A DNA stretch of 64,000 nucleotides from a virus (lineage: Duplodnaviria; Heunggongvirae; Uroviricota; Caudoviricetes). Under the pieces are notes generated by a model. It saw only the letters and a list, made by a program, of their open reading frames with translations. It had not been told where the DNA came from and made no database searches. Where the stretch lies: positions 19,119 through 83,118 of the IMG/VR virus record IMGVR_UViG_2506381019_000003. One strand, 5' to 3'. Every line of letters starts with the position of its first letter. Position 1 is the first letter of the stretch. Below are positions 25,828-62,237 of this stretch, piece by piece. A program made the position numbers and the translations under genes.

Positions 25828-25844
25828 GATTCGTGTTTTGTACT

Positions 25845-25890
25845 GCGAAGCCCCTGTACGGCGCCCAGGAGGGCCGTACAGGGGCTTCGC
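25845..25890 (-). terminator. Strong hairpin with an 18-bp perfect stem (GCGAAGCCCCTGTACGGC / GCCGTACAGGGGCTTCGC), 12 nt after the rsr stop codon.
   Basis: The inverted repeat is visible in the sequence. An A/U-containing tract follows on the minus strand. Confidence 0.65.
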
Positions 25891-25902
25891 TGTCTGCTCC
25901 GG

Positions 25903-27495
25903 TCAGAACGGCCAGCCGCCACCCGCGCGGGCGTCGACCGCGGCGAGCATCTGGAACCCGGCGTCGGTCAGCCCGCCGACGGTGACCCGGTTCCGGCCCG
26001 CTTCGACGTGCGCGGCCCGGTAGCCGCCGACGTTGAACGTGACGAGCGGGACGTCGGGGAGCTTGCCCGGGGAGTCCTGCGCCTGCTCGTCCGTCACGAT
26101 CACGATCCGGCTGTGGCCGGAGTACGTCTGCGCGAGCGTCGTCCAGGTGAGCGTGCCGCCCATGTGCGCGCGGCCGTGCGCCTTCACGAGGGGCAGCAGC
26201 GACGCGCCCGCGGGCAGGTCAATCCGCTCATGGCGCGCGCGCTGCGAACCCCAGGCACCCGTCGAGCCGTACATGTACACGTCGGCGTGCTCGGCGCGGA
26301 GGCCGATGGCGAGGCCGAAGAGGGCGGCAGCTTCGGCGCGACTCAGCGTCGACTTGTCCGACAGCCGGCCGCTCATCGACTGCGACTGGTCGATGAGCAC
26401 CAGCGTGCTACCCGGCAACTTGGGGATGTTGGACAGGCTGTGCCCGATGGCCTGCTCCAGCGGGTACGCCCAGCGCAGCGAGGACACCTCCCGATAGGCG
26501 GTGTAGAAGCGCAGCGGGAACATCCGCGACTTCCTCACCTGCTCGGCGTCCCGCAGGCGCGCGGCGACCAGCTCCGCGACGTCGTCGGGCACGCCGGCCT
26601 GGTCGAAGTTCCGCAGGTTCCTCACCTTGGCGAACAGGCCCATCGACGGGATGACCGCGGACCAGGCCGCGGCATCGAGCGGGCCCCCGAGCCAGCTGGC
26701 GAGTGCCTCCCATGTCATCCCCGCGGCCTTGAGCGTCCCCGCCGCGTCCGGGCCCCACGAGGCGAGCGTGGCGGCACGGTCGGCCGGGGGGATCGCGTCG
26801 AGGTCCTCGCGGGCGGCGAGCATCGGCAGGTTGCCGGTCGCCTTGCCGTCCTTGTGATGCCGGCGGTCGAGGACGTAGCCGTACAGGTCGGCCTGCCAGC
26901 TGGCGGACGGCTTCGGGTGGACGAGGTTCAGCACGTCCCCGAGCCTCCACGGCTGTGCCAGGCCGTCGTACTTCAGCGCGGCGCGCTCGGTGTACAGGCG
27001 GGTGACGGCGTCAGCGAGGCCGCGCTGGACACCGCCGGGCAGGGTCGCACCAGGCCGGCCGGAGAGCCAGTAGGCGATGAACTCGCCGGGCTCGTCTGCG
27101 CGCTGCAGCGTGGAGGCGATGACGGAGCGGACCGTCGGGGCCGCCGCGCGGGCGTCCGGGTCGAGCTCGCGGACGGCGCGGGCGTACTCGGCTGCGGCCA
27201 CGATGCTCGCGGTGCGCATGTTCGCGGTGGTGCGGAGCCAGGGGATCAGCCGCGCGACCCAGCTGGCATCCTCGGCGACGGCCTGGTGGATGAGCTGCAC
27301 GAACCGGTTGTCGCGGTCGGACGCGGCCTCGTGGTGGGTGGCCTCCCCGACCATGTTGGTGATCGCGAGGGTGAAGAGCTCACCCTTCACATCCCGGGAC
27401 CAGCCAGCGCCGCCCATCGCGGTGTGGGTCGGGCTGGTGGTCTGTACGGGGCCGTGTTGGCCGCCGCGGGGGTGCGCCTGCGCGAGCTTGCCCAT
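25903..27495 (-). CDS. rsr: Ro60-related TROVE-domain protein with a C-terminal vWA domain (Rsr orthologue).
   Basis: 530 aa. vWA MIDAS motif 'LVLIDQSQSMSG'. TROVE-like N-terminal region ('AIPPADRAATLASWGPDAA ... RMFPLRFYTAYREV'). Confidence 0.7.
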   Translation of the reverse strand: MGKLAQAHPRGGQHGPVQTTSPTHTAMGGAGWSRDVKGELFTLAITNMVGEATHHEAASDRDNRFVQLIHQAVAEDASWVARLIPWLRTTANMRTASIVAAAEYARAVRELDPDARAAAPTVRSVIASTLQRADEPGEFIAYWLSGRPGATLPGGVQRGLADAVTRLYTERAALKYDGLAQPWRLGDVLNLVHPKPSASWQADLYGYVLDRRHHKDGKATGNLPMLAAREDLDAIPPADRAATLASWGPDAAGTLKAAGMTWEALASWLGGPLDAAAWSAVIPSMGLFAKVRNLRNFDQAGVPDDVAELVAARLRDAEQVRKSRMFPLRFYTAYREVSSLRWAYPLEQAIGHSLSNIPKLPGSTLVLIDQSQSMSGRLSDKSTLSRAEAAALFGLAIGLRAEHADVYMYGSTGAWGSQRARHERIDLPAGASLLPLVKAHGRAHMGGTLTWTTLAQTYSGHSRIVIVTDEQAQDSPGKLPDVPLVTFNVGGYRAAHVEAGRNRVTVGGLTDAGFQMLAAVDARAGGGWPF

Positions 27496-27499
27496 CCGT

Positions 27500-27757
27500 T
27501 CCTCCCAAGTCAGGGGGTACGGACGCGAACGACCCCCGTGCGGGAGACCGAGTACCAGGTGGGCGAGGAGACAAGATCCGACGCGAGCCGGATCCCATTT
27601 GCAGTGGGAAGTATCCCCACCCTTCGCTTCGGTACCCCGCAGGGGGGTCGTAGGCGTCCGAGTACCAGGCGGTCGAAGGCGTCACATCACCAGAAGAAGT
27701 AGCCCTCAACCATTCGCTTCGGACGGCGCTCACGCTACCACAAGACTCGCGAAGCCT
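27500..27757. ncRNA. Candidate Y-RNA-like structured non-coding RNA locus upstream of rsr.
   Basis: About 290 bp of non-coding DNA, unusually long for this genome. Two 20-nt direct repeats (CCGAGTACCAGGYGGKCGAR, near 27549 and 27659) and several short GC hairpins. Rsr genes are commonly adjacent to Y RNA genes. Confidence 0.25.
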
Positions 27758-27786
27758 GCGATTCGTGTTCAGTACTTTCTCGCGGG

Positions 27787-28215
27787 TCAGCGGCTGCGGC
27801 GGAGGGGGGCTTCGTGGTCCCACAGGGCGAGAGTGGACAGGCGCCACCGGCTGGTGCGGCCGGATCCTTCGTCGGGTTCGGGGAGGGTGCCCCGCTCCCC
27901 CGACCGTCGGGCGGAGTCCGGGGTCATGCCGTACCGTTCGGCGACCTCGTCGAGGTCGAGGAGCCGGTCGGGGCCGTCGAGCGGCGGCGGGGGCTGTGTG
28001 GCCGCGTGGTCGCGCTGGTCCGCGCGGGCCTGGCGGACGGTGAGCGCGGCGGACAGCTGCAACGCGCCGGGGGGTACCTCGTCGACAACGTCGCCGACGG
28101 TGGCGGCGTAGCGGGTGACCTCCGCTTCTGCCCAGGCGCGCGCCGCGGCCTCGTCTGCGAACTTGCCGCCCGCGGCGACCTCGCGCCCCGTTGCCGTCGT
28201 GATGAGAATCCGCAT
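27787..28215 (-). CDS. HTH DNA-binding protein (MerR/Xis-like).
   Basis: 'LLDLDEVAERYGMTPDSARR'. The likely start is the internal 'MRILITT'. Confidence 0.4.
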   Translation of the reverse strand: MRILITTATGREVAAGGKFADEAAARAWAEAEVTRYAATVGDVVDEVPPGALQLSAALTVRQARADQRDHAATQPPPPLDGPDRLLDLDEVAERYGMTPDSARRSGERGTLPEPDEGSGRTSRWRLSTLALWDHEAPLRRSR

Positions 28216-28280
28216 CGGCCGATTGTCCCGGCACATGGCTGTGCGGCCCGCGGGGATGGTCCTTCGCGGGCCGCACAGGG

Positions 28281-60941: not shown

Positions 60942-61062
60942 GAGACGTACGATACATGAATCGTAAAAAGTACTTACTCTGACCAGGCCAAACGCTCCGA
61001 CAACGCATCGCGGGTTGGCACACCGTAGAGACTGCGATACATGAATCGCGTAGCATGCCCGC
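60942..61062. promoter_or_regulatory. Genetic-switch intergenic region with a direct repeat GATACATGAATCG (two copies 88 bp apart) and the motif TGAATCGTAAAAAGTACTTAC.
   Basis: 121-bp gap between divergent HTH genes. The repeats are visible in the sequence. Confidence 0.55.
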
Positions 61063-61494
61063 ATGAGCTTCCGAGCCCTGCTGCGCGAGCAGGTCGACAA
61101 GCACGGCGGGGCCCGGTTCCGTACTCAGCGCGAACTCGCCGAGTACTTGGACGTGCCGGAGGCCTTGCTCTCCAACTGGGTCAGCGGCAAGGCCAAGCAG
61201 CCCCGCGGTGGCCTCACCGAGGCCGTCGCCATAGCCAAACGGCTCGGCTACAGCGAGGAAGACGCACTCAAAAAGATCTATCTGGAGGAGCCGGACGAGA
61301 CCCCCGCTCGCTCCCGCAAGGCCCCCACTCCACAGGAGATCTTGCGGGATCACTACCGGGTCCCGCCCGAACTGATCGACCGATTTGATGATCTAGATCT
61401 AGATAGTCCGGACGTGATGGACGCGGCTTGGCGGGCCGCTCTCGGGGCGCTGGAGGCTATCGCGAAGCGGCCTGACAGGCAGGATGGGCCATAA
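61063..61494 (+). CDS. cI-like immunity repressor candidate (N-terminal XRE HTH).
   Basis: 'RTQRELAEYLDVPEALLSNWVSGKAKQP'. On the same strand as xis and int. Confidence 0.55.
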   Translation: MSFRALLREQVDKHGGARFRTQRELAEYLDVPEALLSNWVSGKAKQPRGGLTEAVAIAKRLGYSEEDALKKIYLEEPDETPARSRKAPTPQEILRDHYRVPPELIDRFDDLDLDSPDVMDAAWRAALGALEAIAKRPDRQDGP

Positions 61495-61636
61495 GTCTCG
61501 ACTACGCTCTGTTAGTTGACGTCCTACGTCAGCACGCCAGGAATCACGTTCCGTACCTAATTGACAACGGGCAAACACGGCTGTATCCGCAGGTGACAAC
61601 CCGATTGCGTTAGTCCGTCAGTAGGCATAGACACAT

Positions 61637-61667
61637 CCCCCTACGCGCACGGTGCGCGTCGAGGGGG
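61637..61667 (+). terminator. GC hairpin (CCCCT-ACGCGCAC-G-GTGCGCGT-CGA-GGGG) downstream of the repressor candidate.
   Basis: Inverted repeat visible in the sequence. Confidence 0.35.
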
Positions 61668-61699
61668 GTACACACGTGCACACAGTCACCACCGCCCCT

Positions 61700-62044
61700 A
61701 TGGGCGGGATAGTCATGCTGCCCGTAGGAACGGTCTGGGTCCTGGTCCTCTCCGCAACGAGGACCAGCATTGCAGCGCTCGACGCCACCGCCCAGAAGAT
61801 CGCGGAAGGCTACTGGGCCTGGGACGACATCACCATCCATCCCGGCCCGCCCTGTCCCGCGGGTGAAGTCGAGCTCCACCGCCGGATCACCGAGGCCGTC
61901 CCGGACCTGACCGACGCCGAGTGGTCACGGTTCACCAGACGGTCCCTCCGCGGCCTGCGGGTCGACGTCGACCCCCGAAGCGACGTCGGCCCAGACGCCA
62001 CGGAGACGACACCTGGCCTCACCCCGGCATCCAGCAGAACCTGA
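61700..62044 (+). CDS. Hypothetical protein, about 115 aa.
   Basis: ORF 61652-62044. The internal start 'MGGIVMLPVG' avoids the hairpin. Confidence 0.3.
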   Translation: MGGIVMLPVGTVWVLVLSATRTSIAALDATAQKIAEGYWAWDDITIHPGPPCPAGEVELHRRITEAVPDLTDAEWSRFTRRSLRGLRVDVDPRSDVGPDATETTPGLTPASSRT

Positions 62045-62060
62045 GCTCCAGCACCACAAA

Positions 62061-62095
62061 GCGCCCCGCGGACAGCACCCGCGGGGCGCTCGCCG
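62061..62095 (+). terminator. Rho-independent-type terminator (GCGCCCCGCGG / CCGCGGGGCGC, then a T-containing tract).
   Basis: 11-bp perfect stem followed by 'TCGCCGTTTCACAAATTTC'. Confidence 0.6.
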
Positions 62096-62237
62096 TTTCA
62101 CAAATTTCTAGTAAGTACTTTGCGCTACTCGCACATTGTGATACCCCTATGCCCAGGGTCCAACTGGACCCAGGTGGACACGTCCGGGCCGACCTAGACC
62201 AGCCCGGACAGTAGATCAAGCAGGCGAGGGGCGCGAC

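What the first reader, a model, noticed from the sequence alone, without database searches (positions are those of the whole stretch)
25828..62125. A dispersed 17-bp motif ATTCGTG-N4-GTACT recurs at least ten times, all in intergenic regions.
Copies lie near 25829 (ATTCGTGTTTTGTACT), 27761 (ATTCGTGTTCAGTACT), 37231 (ATTCGTGAAAGGTACT, inside a 32-bp palindrome upstream of lsr2), 50461 (reverse orientation), 50806 and 52931 (degenerate), 53128 (AATCGCGTTTGGTACT), 56476 (ATTCGTGAAAAGTACT, upstream of the HNH gene), 60958 (AATCGTAAAAAGTACT, in the cro/cI switch) and 62108 (degenerate). The half-site spacing is too short for a -35/-10 promoter. The distribution resembles repressor 'stoperator'-type sites, or the site of another phage regulator such as the XRE gene at 48471 or the cro-like / cI-like proteins.
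Basis: seen in the sequence. Interest (0 to 1): 0.6.

Follow-up and report, generated by a model that had tools for sequence, protein, structure and literature searches.

The report
Dispersed repressor operators in Frankia prophage
A short DNA word repeated at about twelve gene starts of a Parafrankia prophage is most likely the set of docking sites for the prophage's own on/off switch proteins, a known kind of phage control built here from a previously undescribed protein family and site sequence.

Summary
ATTCGTG-N4-GTACT occurs 5 times exactly and 17 times with up to 2 mismatches; shuffles give 0 and 1.4. Every strong copy is intergenic. It is the dominant over-represented motif in the intergenic DNA.

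Most genes here lie on the minus strand, so in the direction of transcription the unit reads AGTAC-wwww-CACGAAT(cg). There are about 12 loci. Four are 29-bp dyads, three are GTAC-centred dyads, and five are single units. All six loci that have one strong unit point the way the downstream gene is transcribed.

The window is a Parafrankia sp. EUN1f prophage. Sites lie at the starts of transcription units: cro-like, cI-like, xis/int, HNH, replication initiator, lsr2 and Ro60. Several follow strong terminator hairpins. At three apparently leaderless genes the sites overlap the inferred -35/-10 region.

Five related prophage loci, two traceable to Frankia or Parafrankia, share the cro | cI | xis | int layout but lack this motif. 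At least four carry their own repeat at equivalent positions. That repeat is conserved when the repressors are 90% identical and different when they are 41% identical or less.

Best reading: immunity-specific operators of the prophage's HTH regulators, probably the cI-like protein. This works like P1 C1, L5 gp71 or phiC31 sites but is not a member of those protein families. Binding is untested.

The parts
60946..60974 (.). Site A. A 29-bp dyad, CGTACGATACATGAATCGTAAAAAGTACT. It overlaps the inferred -10 and spacer of the leaderless cro-like gene.
   Evidence: PWM 27.4 bits (-) and 22.5 bits (+). The cro-like GTG at 60941 has no Shine-Dalgarno sequence, and TATCGT at 60954-60949 lies 7 nt upstream.
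61031..61049 (+). Site B. A single degenerate unit and 16-bp palindrome, GCGATACATGAATCGC. It abuts the inferred -10 (TAGCAT, 61051-61056) of the leaderless cI-like gene.
   Evidence: PWM 15.0 bits, not a training site. The same arrangement, a palindrome abutting TAnnnT 6-8 nt before the ATG, occurs in all five cI-like loci compared.
60950..60963 (+). Switch-specific 14-mer palindrome CGATACATGAATCG, copy 1. Copy 2 is at 61035-61048.
   Evidence: Exactly two copies in the window, 85 bp apart, both in the cro/cI spacer. A similar ACATGAATC element occurs in L218, whose cro-like recognition helix is nearly the same.
62102..62131 (.). Site C. A weak GTAC-centred dyad 107 bp upstream of the xis-like gene and the integrase.
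   Evidence: PWM 17.6 and 15.1 bits, not training sites. The relatives' own repeats recur at the same position upstream of xis/int in L217, L219, L220 and L221.
56463..56491 (-). Site D. The best single unit, AGTACTTTTCACGAATTG, with a weak inverted partner. It lies between a terminator hairpin and the HNH endonuclease gene.
   Evidence: PWM 32.5 bits. Hairpin at 56503-56532, -31.2 kcal/mol, z -4.9. HNH assignment from PHROG 740, E 5e-28.
53117..53145 (.). Site E. A 29-bp dyad, AGTACTCTCCACGAATCGCGTTTGGTACT. It lies upstream of a structured 190-nt leader and the replication-initiator gene.
   Evidence: PWM 26.9 and 24.1 bits. 18 of 29 positions are self-complementary. O-like replication initiator at 51885-52889.
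52929..52946 (-). Site F. A weak single unit, GGTACTTTGCGAGATTCC, upstream of the replication-initiator gene.
   Evidence: PWM 11.6 bits, against 2.1 hits of at least 10 bits expected per shuffled window, so it is not significant alone.
50791..50812 (-). Site G2. A single unit, AGTACTATTCTTGATTAG, 23 bp upstream of an 82-aa ORF (50520-50768).
   Evidence: PWM 21.6 bits, not a training site. This is the AT-richest 30-bp window of the whole 64 kb.
50453..50482 (.). Site G1. A GTAC-centred dyad upstream of gene 49992-50360/50432 and the DUF2786 gene.
   Evidence: PWM 21.3 bits (-) and 26.8 bits (+). Context.
37225..37256 (.). Site H. A GTAC-centred imperfect 32-bp dyad 58 bp upstream of the lsr2 homologue.
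   Evidence: PWM 29.7 and 26.9 bits. 18 of the central 26 positions are self-complementary. Lsr2 Pfam domains, E 1e-27.
36733..36774 (.). Site I. A weak, possible site between the lsr2 terminator hairpin and the next operon.
   Evidence: Two hits with 2 mismatches. PWM 13.1 bits. Hairpin at 36772-36808, -34.4 kcal/mol, z -4.2.
27759..27776 (-). Site J. A single unit, AGTACTGAACACGAATCG, upstream of a structured non-coding stretch and the Ro60/TROVE gene.
   Evidence: PWM 28.5 bits. TAGCGT lies 22 nt downstream of the unit's 3' end. TROVE Pfam E 2.5e-12.
25816..25844 (.). Site K. The best 29-bp dyad, GGTACATTCCACGATTCGTGTTTTGTACT. It directly abuts the Ro60 terminator hairpin and overlaps the inferred promoter of the apparently leaderless gene 25117-25806.
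   Evidence: PWM 29.9 and 23.8 bits. 20 of 29 positions are self-complementary. Hairpin at 25845-25890, -42.7 kcal/mol, z -6.1. TACCGT at 25819-25814 lies 7 nt before the GTG at 25806, which has no Shine-Dalgarno sequence.
61063..61494 (+). cI-like HTH repressor gene (143 aa). Favoured binder of the dispersed motif.
   Evidence: Pfam HTH_3 and Phage_CI_repr, both weak; no S24 peptidase domain. PHROG transcriptional repressor. 100% identical to a Parafrankia sp. EUN1f protein. Only four full-length remote homologues among 1.84 billion representatives.
60615..60941 (-). cro-like HTH_31 gene (108 aa), divergent from the cI-like gene. Candidate binder of the switch 14-mers and possibly of the dispersed motif.
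   Evidence: Pfam HTH_31 E 3.8e-7. Homologous (31-47% identity) to the divergent gene in all five related loci.
48471..48998 (-). An alternative candidate binder only.
   Evidence: HTH_31 E 2.4e-4, below the curated cut-off. PHROG 10886 transcriptional regulator, E 5e-7. No evidence links it to the motif.

Best explanation
The motif is the operator set of the prophage's own immunity regulators. The unit is a 16-18-bp bipartite, asymmetric sequence, AGTAC-wwww-CACGAAT(cg). Its two conserved blocks lie about one helical turn apart. It occurs singly, always pointing with transcription, or as two overlapping inverted units.

The units sit on or just upstream of the core promoters that start the early and accessory transcription units: cro-like operon, cI-like gene, xis/int, HNH operon, replication genes, lsr2, and the Ro60 gene with its upstream non-coding stretch and the gene after it.

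The inferred mechanism is as follows. In the lysogen the cI-like HTH protein (61063-61494) occupies these sites and blocks RNA polymerase. Strong consensus sites shut the lytic and accessory promoters. The weak sites at its own promoter (B) and at xis/int (C) give mild autoregulation. A second, switch-only 14-mer palindrome (two copies, overlapping A and B) is probably where the cro-like protein competes.

Shown here: the motif's reality, its positions, orientation and dyad structure, and its replacement by other repeats in related prophages. Inferred: the transcription start sites, the identity of the binding protein, and repression rather than activation.
For: 1. Enrichment and intergenic exclusivity.

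2. Position. Three apparently leaderless genes (cro-like GTG 60941, cI-like ATG 61063, gene 25117-25806 GTG 25806) have no Shine-Dalgarno sequence. Each has a TAnnnT hexamer 6-7 nt upstream. Sites A, B and K cover the stretch from about -5/-14 to -33/-38. Nine of the 11 other loci also have a TAnnnT starting 16-40 nt after the first base of the unit.

3. The distance from unit to -10 varies: the hexamer starts at +16 to +40. This fits an operator better than a fixed promoter element.

4. Dyad symmetry at 6-7 of 12 loci fits a DNA-binding protein.

5. All six loci with one strong unit (J, G2, F, I, B, D) are co-directional with the downstream gene.

6. Strong hairpins lie immediately upstream of K, I and D (z -6.1, -4.2, -4.9). 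The sites therefore mark the starts of transcription units.

7. Comparative evidence. L217-L221 share the cro-like | cI-like | small ORF | xis | integrase layout, with the integrase up to 81% identical. None of L217-L219 has a PWM hit of at least 10 bits. L217, L219, L220 and L221 carry their own repeat in the switch that recurs upstream of xis/int; in L219 it also recurs 8 kb away in the early region. L219 and L221 have cI 90% identical and keep the same motif blocks, while the spacer between the blocks has diverged.

8. The site strengths fit a lysogenic repressor. The strongest sites lie on the lytic-side promoters and the weakest on PcI and xis/int.

9. No sigma factor or RNA polymerase gene was found among about 60 ORFs scanned.

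10. The palindrome is absent from Frankia and all other actinobacterial genomes among the GTDB representatives.
Against: - No binding, transcription-start or expression data exist. The promoters are inferred only from TAnnnT hexamers and missing Shine-Dalgarno sequences.
- No close relative of this particular prophage is available, so conservation of these exact sites cannot be tested.
- The assignment to the cI-like rather than the cro-like protein rests on site-strength logic and on one comparison (window versus L218).
- It is odd for one protein to use both AGTACT-centred and CACGAaTCGTG-centred dyads. Two proteins or two domains may be involved.
- If the sites repress, lsr2 and Ro60 would be silent in the lysogen. 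That is unexpected for accessory genes with host-like codon usage (GC3 0.94).
- Many other intergenic gaps lack the motif, including all of those in the late region.
Confidence: 0.65

Rival explanations
1. The motif is a positive element. It is the recognition site of a phage-encoded activator, for example the cro-like protein, the XRE protein at 48471-48998 or an unidentified factor, that switches on a set of early or middle promoters. Alternatively, it is part of a phage-specific promoter.
For: - Single units all point with transcription.
- The AGTAC block falls near the -35 position at A, B and K.
- The sites are the AT-richest spots of the window, as promoters are in high-GC genomes.
- The phage-specific sequence seen in relatives is equally compatible with a phage-specific activator.
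Against: - The spacing from the unit to the nearest TAnnnT varies from +16 to +40.
- More than half of the loci are dyads.
- The dyad centre falls at about -19 to -24 at A and K. That is repressor-like rather than the usual -41 or further upstream position of activators.
- No sigma factor or RNA polymerase gene was found.
- A site also covers the cI promoter, which must be active when lytic promoters are off.
Confidence: 0.17
2. The sites are bound by a host factor or a nucleoid protein rather than by the switch proteins. Candidates are Lsr2, host-encoded or the prophage's own copy, nucleating on these AT-rich islands, or a Frankia transcription factor whose regulon the prophage taps.
For: - The six AT-richest 30-bp windows of the 64 kb are all motif sites, and K ranks ninth.
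- The prophage encodes an Lsr2 homologue whose own upstream region carries site H.
Against: - Near-invariant G/C positions at fixed spacing (G2, C5, C10, C12, G13) are not what AT-tract, minor-groove binders select.
- Related prophages, including one from Frankia sp. AgB32, lack the motif and use different repeats at the same positions.
- The 27-bp dyad pattern has no actinobacterial match among 185,579 species representatives.
Confidence: 0.08
3. The repeats are structural DNA features without a regulatory role. They could be module or cassette boundaries used in recombination, since the Ro60 and lsr2 cassettes are each flanked by copies. They could also be remnants of a small mobile element.
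For: - Direct copies flank the Ro60 cassette (J and K) and lsr2 (H and weak I).
- Phage mosaic joints often lie at gene boundaries (general knowledge).
Against: - No longer conserved flanks or repeat families include the sites.
- Copies also lie in the cro/cI switch and upstream of xis/int, exactly where relatives place their own repeats.
- IMG/VR contigs carry the 14-base core only as singletons, so there is no spread as a mobile element.
Confidence: 0.04

Closest known systems
Phage P1 C1 repressor operators
   Same: Both have many copies of an asymmetric operator of about 17 bp dispersed over the phage genome at promoters of unrelated functions. P1 has 22 operators with the consensus ATTGCTCTAATAAATTT (PMC8546580). 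From my own knowledge, not checked here, some P1 operators are 'bivalent' pairs of overlapping inverted units, like loci K, E, A, H and G1.
   Different: The sequences are unrelated. The cI-like protein is 143 aa and has no tblastn match in 50,697 phage records. The prophage carries a tyrosine integrase and a close relative is chromosomally integrated, whereas P1 is a plasmid prophage. No Coi, Lxc or antisense-RNA layer is evident.
Cluster A mycobacteriophage (L5 gp71 / TipsytheTRex) operators and stoperators
   Same: Both belong to actinobacterial temperate phages. Both use an asymmetric site repeated across the genome in intergenic DNA, with orientation tied to the direction of transcription. 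A monomer with two DNA-reading domains is a precedent for a bipartite unit (PMC9283540).
   Different: - About 12 loci here against more than 20.
- Sites lie at operon starts behind terminators, not inside operons.
- There are none in the late operon.
- More than half are dyads.
- The repressor shows no detectable sequence similarity to any solved structure or phage genome.
- An elongation block is untested.
Streptomyces phage phiC31 conserved inverted repeats (CIRs) bound by the c repressor
   Same: From my own knowledge: phiC31 has about 17-bp inverted repeats, found first at the repressor gene's own promoter and then in many intergenic regions near early promoters and terminators of a high-GC actinophage. 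This is the same overall logic as here.
   Different: The motif sequence is different. No homologue of the cI-like or cro-like protein was found in any phage record.
Lambda-type cI/Cro bistable switch
   Same: Divergent HTH genes are separated by a short spacer (121 bp here). The spacer holds repeated palindromic operators that overlap both promoters. The cI transcript is apparently leaderless.
   Different: - The cI-like protein has no S24 autocleavage domain.
- There are two rather than three operators per side.
- The same or an overlapping motif is also used at about ten promoters far from the switch.

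Membership tests
Cluster A mycobacteriophage stoperator system | Short asymmetric (non-palindromic) repressor site | tested here: inconclusive
   The 16-bp unit has no internal dyad. However, 6-7 of 12 loci are inverted pairs of units.
Cluster A mycobacteriophage stoperator system | More than 20 sites spread through the genome, including short gaps inside operons (PMC9283540) | tested here: not met
   There are 12 loci, none between 88 and 24576 (the late operon). Several lie directly behind strong hairpins at operon starts.
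Cluster A mycobacteriophage stoperator system | Site orientation correlates with the direction of transcription | tested here: met
   Six of six loci with one strong unit are co-directional with the downstream gene, and every locus has a co-directional unit. The nominal chance for six of six is about 0.016.
Cluster A mycobacteriophage stoperator system | Repressor homologous to L5 gp71 (HTH plus Stoperator domain) | tested here: not met
   No significant match to any PDB chain. No tblastn match at E of 0.01 or better in 50,697 phage genomes.
Cluster A mycobacteriophage stoperator system | Bound repressor stops elongating RNA polymerase | not testable with these tools
   Needs in vivo or in vitro transcription assays.
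P1 C1-type dispersed operator system | Many dispersed asymmetric operators of about 17 bp controlling unrelated operons | tested here: met
   About 19 units at 12 loci precede cro, cI, xis/int, HNH, replication, lsr2 and Ro60 genes. The P1 description comes from PMC8546580.
P1 C1-type dispersed operator system | Repressor homologous to C1 | tested here: not met
   No tblastn match of the cI-like or cro-like protein in the phage collection.
Lambda-like cI/Cro immunity switch | Divergent HTH repressor genes with shared repeated operators overlapping both promoters | tested here: met
   HTH_3 and HTH_31 genes are divergent. Two identical 14-mer palindromes and sites A and B lie in the 121-bp spacer. 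The layout is conserved in five related loci. Promoter positions are inferred.
Lambda-like cI/Cro immunity switch | cI with a C-terminal S24 (LexA-like) autocleavage domain | tested here: not met
   Pfam finds only the N-terminal HTH. The C-terminal region is conserved only within the small Frankia-type family.
Sigma-70-type promoter (-35/-10 pair) | Two hexamers resembling TTGACA and TATAAT, 16-19 bp apart | tested here: not met
   The two blocks are 4 bp apart. The consensus scan found 0 promoter-like sites in 48000-64000. The distance from the unit to the nearest TAnnnT varies from +16 to +40.
Immunity-specific operators (sequence co-varies with the repressor) | Related phages with diverged repressors carry different repeats at equivalent positions, and near-identical repressors keep the same repeat | tested here: met
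   L217-L219 (cI-like 38-41% identical by phmmer) have no window motif, and L217, L219 and L220 (34-41%) have their own repeats at the switch and upstream of xis. L219 versus L221 (cI 90% identical) keep the motif blocks while the spacer has diverged. This was shown for the family, not for a close relative of this window.

The most novel reading that the evidence does not exclude
A previously undescribed family of small (133-143 aa) repressors, found so far in Frankia/Parafrankia assemblies and unnamed sequencing runs, reads a bipartite asymmetric operator. It may do so as a monomer with two DNA-reading parts, or as a dimer on a strong arm plus a weak AT-rich arm. In this prophage it has been extended into a genome-wide regulon. 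That regulon places a Ro60/Y-RNA-like module, an Lsr2 silencer, replication and integration under the direct control of the lysis-lysogeny switch. This would be a convergent, independent invention of the P1/L5-type 'one repressor, many dispersed operators' strategy. It would also supply at least five mutually distinct repressor/operator specificities for a genus that lacks genetic tools.
Probability: 0.25. Interest if true: 0.55.

Novelty: new member of a known kind. Interest (0 to 1): 0.35.

Why it matters
Frankia and Parafrankia are nitrogen-fixing plant symbionts. To my knowledge they have no characterised phage and few genetic tools.

If the reading holds, the window provides a complete and testable wiring diagram of a Parafrankia prophage switch. 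It names two regulators, about 12 operator loci of graded strength, and apparently leaderless promoters. Five related prophage loci add different operator sequences and a shared integrase family. These are raw material for orthogonal repressor/operator pairs and integrating vectors.

The finding also adds an example, from an unrelated protein family, of a temperate phage that controls many scattered promoters with one repeated operator. Here the controlled genes include a Ro60 gene and an Lsr2 silencer.

It does not reveal a new principle.

Tried and rejected
- Close relatives by DNA. Megablast and blastn against 50,697 phage records found only a collagen-like tail-fibre repeat.
- cI-like, AAA_24 and cro-like proteins in the word-indexed 5.8-billion protein set. 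Only self hits, distant hits of about 35%, or nothing.
- IMG/VR searches by cI-like protein, AAA_24 and the cI-family alignment found nothing.
- IMG/VR search with the 14-base core found 87 contigs, each with a single copy. I treated these as chance.
- Relatives found through Ro60 (38 loci) and terminase (80 loci, up to 70% identity). None has the motif, and they share only structural genes at 30-60% identity, so they are uninformative for the sites.
- The 27-bp dyad pattern gave 7 isolated non-actinobacterial hits in GTDB genomes and 4 in metagenomes. The source genome itself is not in that collection, so I could not scan the rest of the host chromosome.
- The sigma-70 consensus scan found no promoter-like sites.
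- Rfam found nothing at gathering threshold in the window.
- A single-sequence AlphaFold2 model of the cI-like protein had mean pLDDT 62 and pTM 0.34. It is too poor for a fold search and shows only an N-terminal helical bundle, a linker and C-terminal helices.
- PDB sequence searches with the three HTH proteins gave nothing significant.
- I considered and rejected LexA/SOS box, MerR-type spacer operator, ECF or SigF-type promoter, and restriction-site avoidance (AGTACT/GTAC). None fits the conserved CACGAAT block at fixed spacing. These comparisons rest on recalled consensus sequences, not on tests.
- I noticed a possible hidden 7-2-7 dyad inside the single unit (ACwwwwC-AY-GAATCGT, modelled on the switch palindrome). 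Only 4-6 of 8 pairs match, so I did not adopt it.

Full report
WHAT THE WINDOW IS

The sequence is about 70% G+C. By GC3-based gene calling, most genes lie on the minus strand:
- 88-29305 (-): structural and accessory genes. These include a portal (12585-14300), a large terminase (17264-18595) and a TROVE/Ro60 protein (25903-27495).
- 29405-32518 (+): a block of small genes.
- 32663-60941 (-): early genes. These include lsr2, an SPFH protein, an RNA ligase, PNKP, an XRE regulator, a DUF2786 protein, an O-like replication initiator, an HNH endonuclease, an AAA_24 ATPase and a cro-like HTH protein.
- On the plus strand: a cI-like HTH gene (61063-61494), a small ORF, an xis-like HTH_17 gene and a tyrosine integrase (62504 to the window end).

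The cI-like and AAA_24 proteins are 100% identical to proteins of Parafrankia sp. EUN1f. The window is therefore a Parafrankia temperate prophage. No isolated phage resembles it at the DNA level.

- The exact pattern occurs 5 times against 0 in shuffles. With up to 2 mismatches it occurs 17 times against 1.4.
- Intergenic DNA is not more AT-rich than the genome (GC 0.697). A shuffle test restricted to the 8.9 kb of intergenic DNA gives 5 and 16 observed against 0 and 0.26 expected.
- An 18-nt matrix gives 16 hits of at least 15 bits against 0.15 expected. Four of these sites were not used to build the matrix.
- An unbiased dyad count finds nothing else comparable in intergenic DNA.
- The motif sites include the six AT-richest 30-bp windows of the whole 64 kb.

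ANATOMY

Read in the direction of transcription, the unit is a-AGTAC-wwww-CACGAAT-cg. There are twelve loci, labelled A to K plus I:
- Four are 29-bp dyads, AGTAC-N4-CACGAaTCGTG-N4-GTACT: K, E, A and a partial one at D.
- Three are GTAC-centred dyads, TTCGTG-N3-AGTACT-N3-CACGAA: H, G1 and a weak one at C.
- The rest are single units: J, G2, F, I and B.

The six loci with only one strong unit all point with the downstream gene. No longer repeat surrounds the sites.

The cro/cI spacer also holds two identical 14-mers, CGATACATGAATCG. They are found nowhere else and each forms a 16-bp palindrome, one overlapping site A and one overlapping site B.

CONTEXT

Each locus precedes a gene or operon start. 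K, I and D lie directly behind very stable hairpins, and H and G1 behind weaker ones.

The cro-like gene, the cI-like gene and gene 25117-25806 have no Shine-Dalgarno sequence. Each has a TAnnnT hexamer 6-7 nt before the start codon. This is the usual signature of leaderless actinobacterial transcripts (established knowledge; the start sites here are inferred). On that reading, sites A, B and K cover the -10/-35 spacer region.

Nine of the other 11 loci have a TAnnnT starting 16-40 nt after the first base of the unit. The variable distance argues against the motif being a promoter element of fixed geometry.

No sigma factor or RNA polymerase gene was detected among about 60 ORFs scanned.

COMPARATIVE EVIDENCE

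Word-indexed searches and all collection scans found no relative carrying the motif.

An exhaustive HMMER search then found four full-length remote homologues of the cI-like protein, at 34-41% identity. Their contigs are L217, L218, L219 (Frankia sp. AgB32, integrated next to glnD/amtB) and L220. A fifth locus, L221, encodes a cI protein 90% identical to that of L219. All five show the same layout: cro-like | cI-like | small ORF | xis | integrase. The integrases are 69-81% identical to the window's (L219, L220), and the cro-like proteins are homologous at 31-47%.

L217-L219, the three loci scanned with the matrix, have no hit of at least 10 bits. At least four of the five have their own AT-richer repeat in the switch that recurs upstream of xis/int:
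- L217: GTATCAGATACA and GATACACGCGGAA.
- L219 and L221: AACAGATCTGCTG. In L219 it also occurs 8 kb away in the early region.
- L220: GTGATAC-SS-GTATCAC.
- L218: only a switch repeat, ATTCATGAATC, was clear.

In all five loci compared, a palindrome abuts a TAnnnT 6-8 nt before a cI ATG that lacks a Shine-Dalgarno sequence.

Between L219 and L221 the motif blocks are nearly identical, while the DNA between them has diverged to about 30% identity.

The repeats share a loose core, AYGWATC. The window has ACGAATC and ATGAATC.

The pattern is therefore: repeat sequence changes with the regulators, and position stays constant. That is the behaviour expected of immunity operators. It is not expected of host-factor sites or of generic promoter elements within one host genus.

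WHICH PROTEIN BINDS

This step is inferred. The consensus-strongest sites cover lytic-side promoters, and the weakest cover PcI and xis/int. That is the pattern expected of the lysogenic (cI-like) repressor.

The switch-only 14-mer resembles the switch element of L218. The cro-like recognition helix of L218 is almost the same as the window's (SQPxLxRxE). The cI-like recognition helices of the two prophages differ. This single comparison suggests that the cro-like protein reads the 14-mer and the cI-like protein reads the dispersed unit.

The stoichiometry is open. The unit could be read by a monomer with two reading heads, as in cluster A repressors (PMC9283540), or by a dimer on unequal arms.

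COMPARISON WITH KNOWN SYSTEMS

Functionally this is the 'one repressor, many dispersed operators' arrangement of three known systems:
- P1 C1: 22 asymmetric 17-bp operators (PMC8546580).
- L5 gp71 operators and stoperators (PMC9283540).
- phiC31 conserved inverted repeats (my own knowledge).

It is not a member of those protein families. There are no PDB or phage-genome matches. It also fails the stoperator criteria of site number and of placement inside operons.

VERDICT

The motif is real and highly non-random. It is most likely a phage-specific operator regulon of a small, previously undescribed repressor family seen so far in Frankia/Parafrankia-type prophages. It is a new member of a known kind. 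Interest is moderate, with practical value for Frankia genetics.

Noticed in passing
window 25903-27495 (-) and 27496-27745 (-): The prophage encodes a Ro60/TROVE protein (Pfam E 2.5e-12; GC3 0.94). The 250 nt upstream of it is non-coding and folds far better than shuffles (z -4.46). It contains two tandem modules..GUCCGAAGCGAA..GGCUACUUC.. and CCUGGUACUCGG. nhmmer finds weak matches at the same position upstream of TROVE genes in several IMG/VR phage contigs. One of these (L001) has an Rfam tRNA hit at 9080-9151, right there. This looks like a YrlA-type, tRNA-like Y RNA, but no Rfam family matches in the window.
   Followed up: partly
window 42712-44894 (-): A T4-type RNA ligase (42712-43950) lies adjacent to a polynucleotide kinase-phosphatase (43950-44894). 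With the Ro60 gene, the prophage carries a notable set of RNA repair and quality-control genes.
   Followed up: no
window 52448-52557: Four to five tandem 22-bp repeats (CTTCCGGTTGAGACCGGTCGAT) lie inside the O-like replication-initiator gene 51885-52889. They are probably origin iterons, as in lambda.
   Followed up: partly
window 29299-29398: A 32-36-nt inverted repeat (94% complementary, about 26-nt loop) fills the spacer between the divergent genes 28610-29305 (-) and 29405-29740 (+). It is unrelated to the motif and unexplained.
   Followed up: no
window 52960-53107 (-): A non-coding stretch of about 190 nt lies between sites E and F, upstream of the replication gene. It has a long hairpin (CCCGGACGGGGG...CCCGUCCGGG) and folds with z -2.8. 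It could be a structured leader or a small RNA.
   Followed up: partly
L217, L218, L220, L221 (Logan assemblies) and L219 (Frankia sp. AgB32, GCA_023243045.1): These loci form a small family of prophages with a shared integrase/xis/cI/cro module but at least five different operator sequences. In L219 the prophage lies next to glnD/P-II/amtB and carries two IS605/TnpB insertions in its early region. L221 carries a WhiB gene.
   Followed up: partly
window 16847-17011: Five tandem 33-bp repeats (11-aa repeats) lie inside the minus-strand gene 16811-17173, next to the terminase.
   Followed up: no
window 36815-37168 (-) and 37646-38590 (-): A prophage-encoded Lsr2 homologue (both Pfam domains) and an SPFH/Band-7 protein both have very high GC3 (0.94). 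This suggests host-adapted accessory genes.
   Followed up: no
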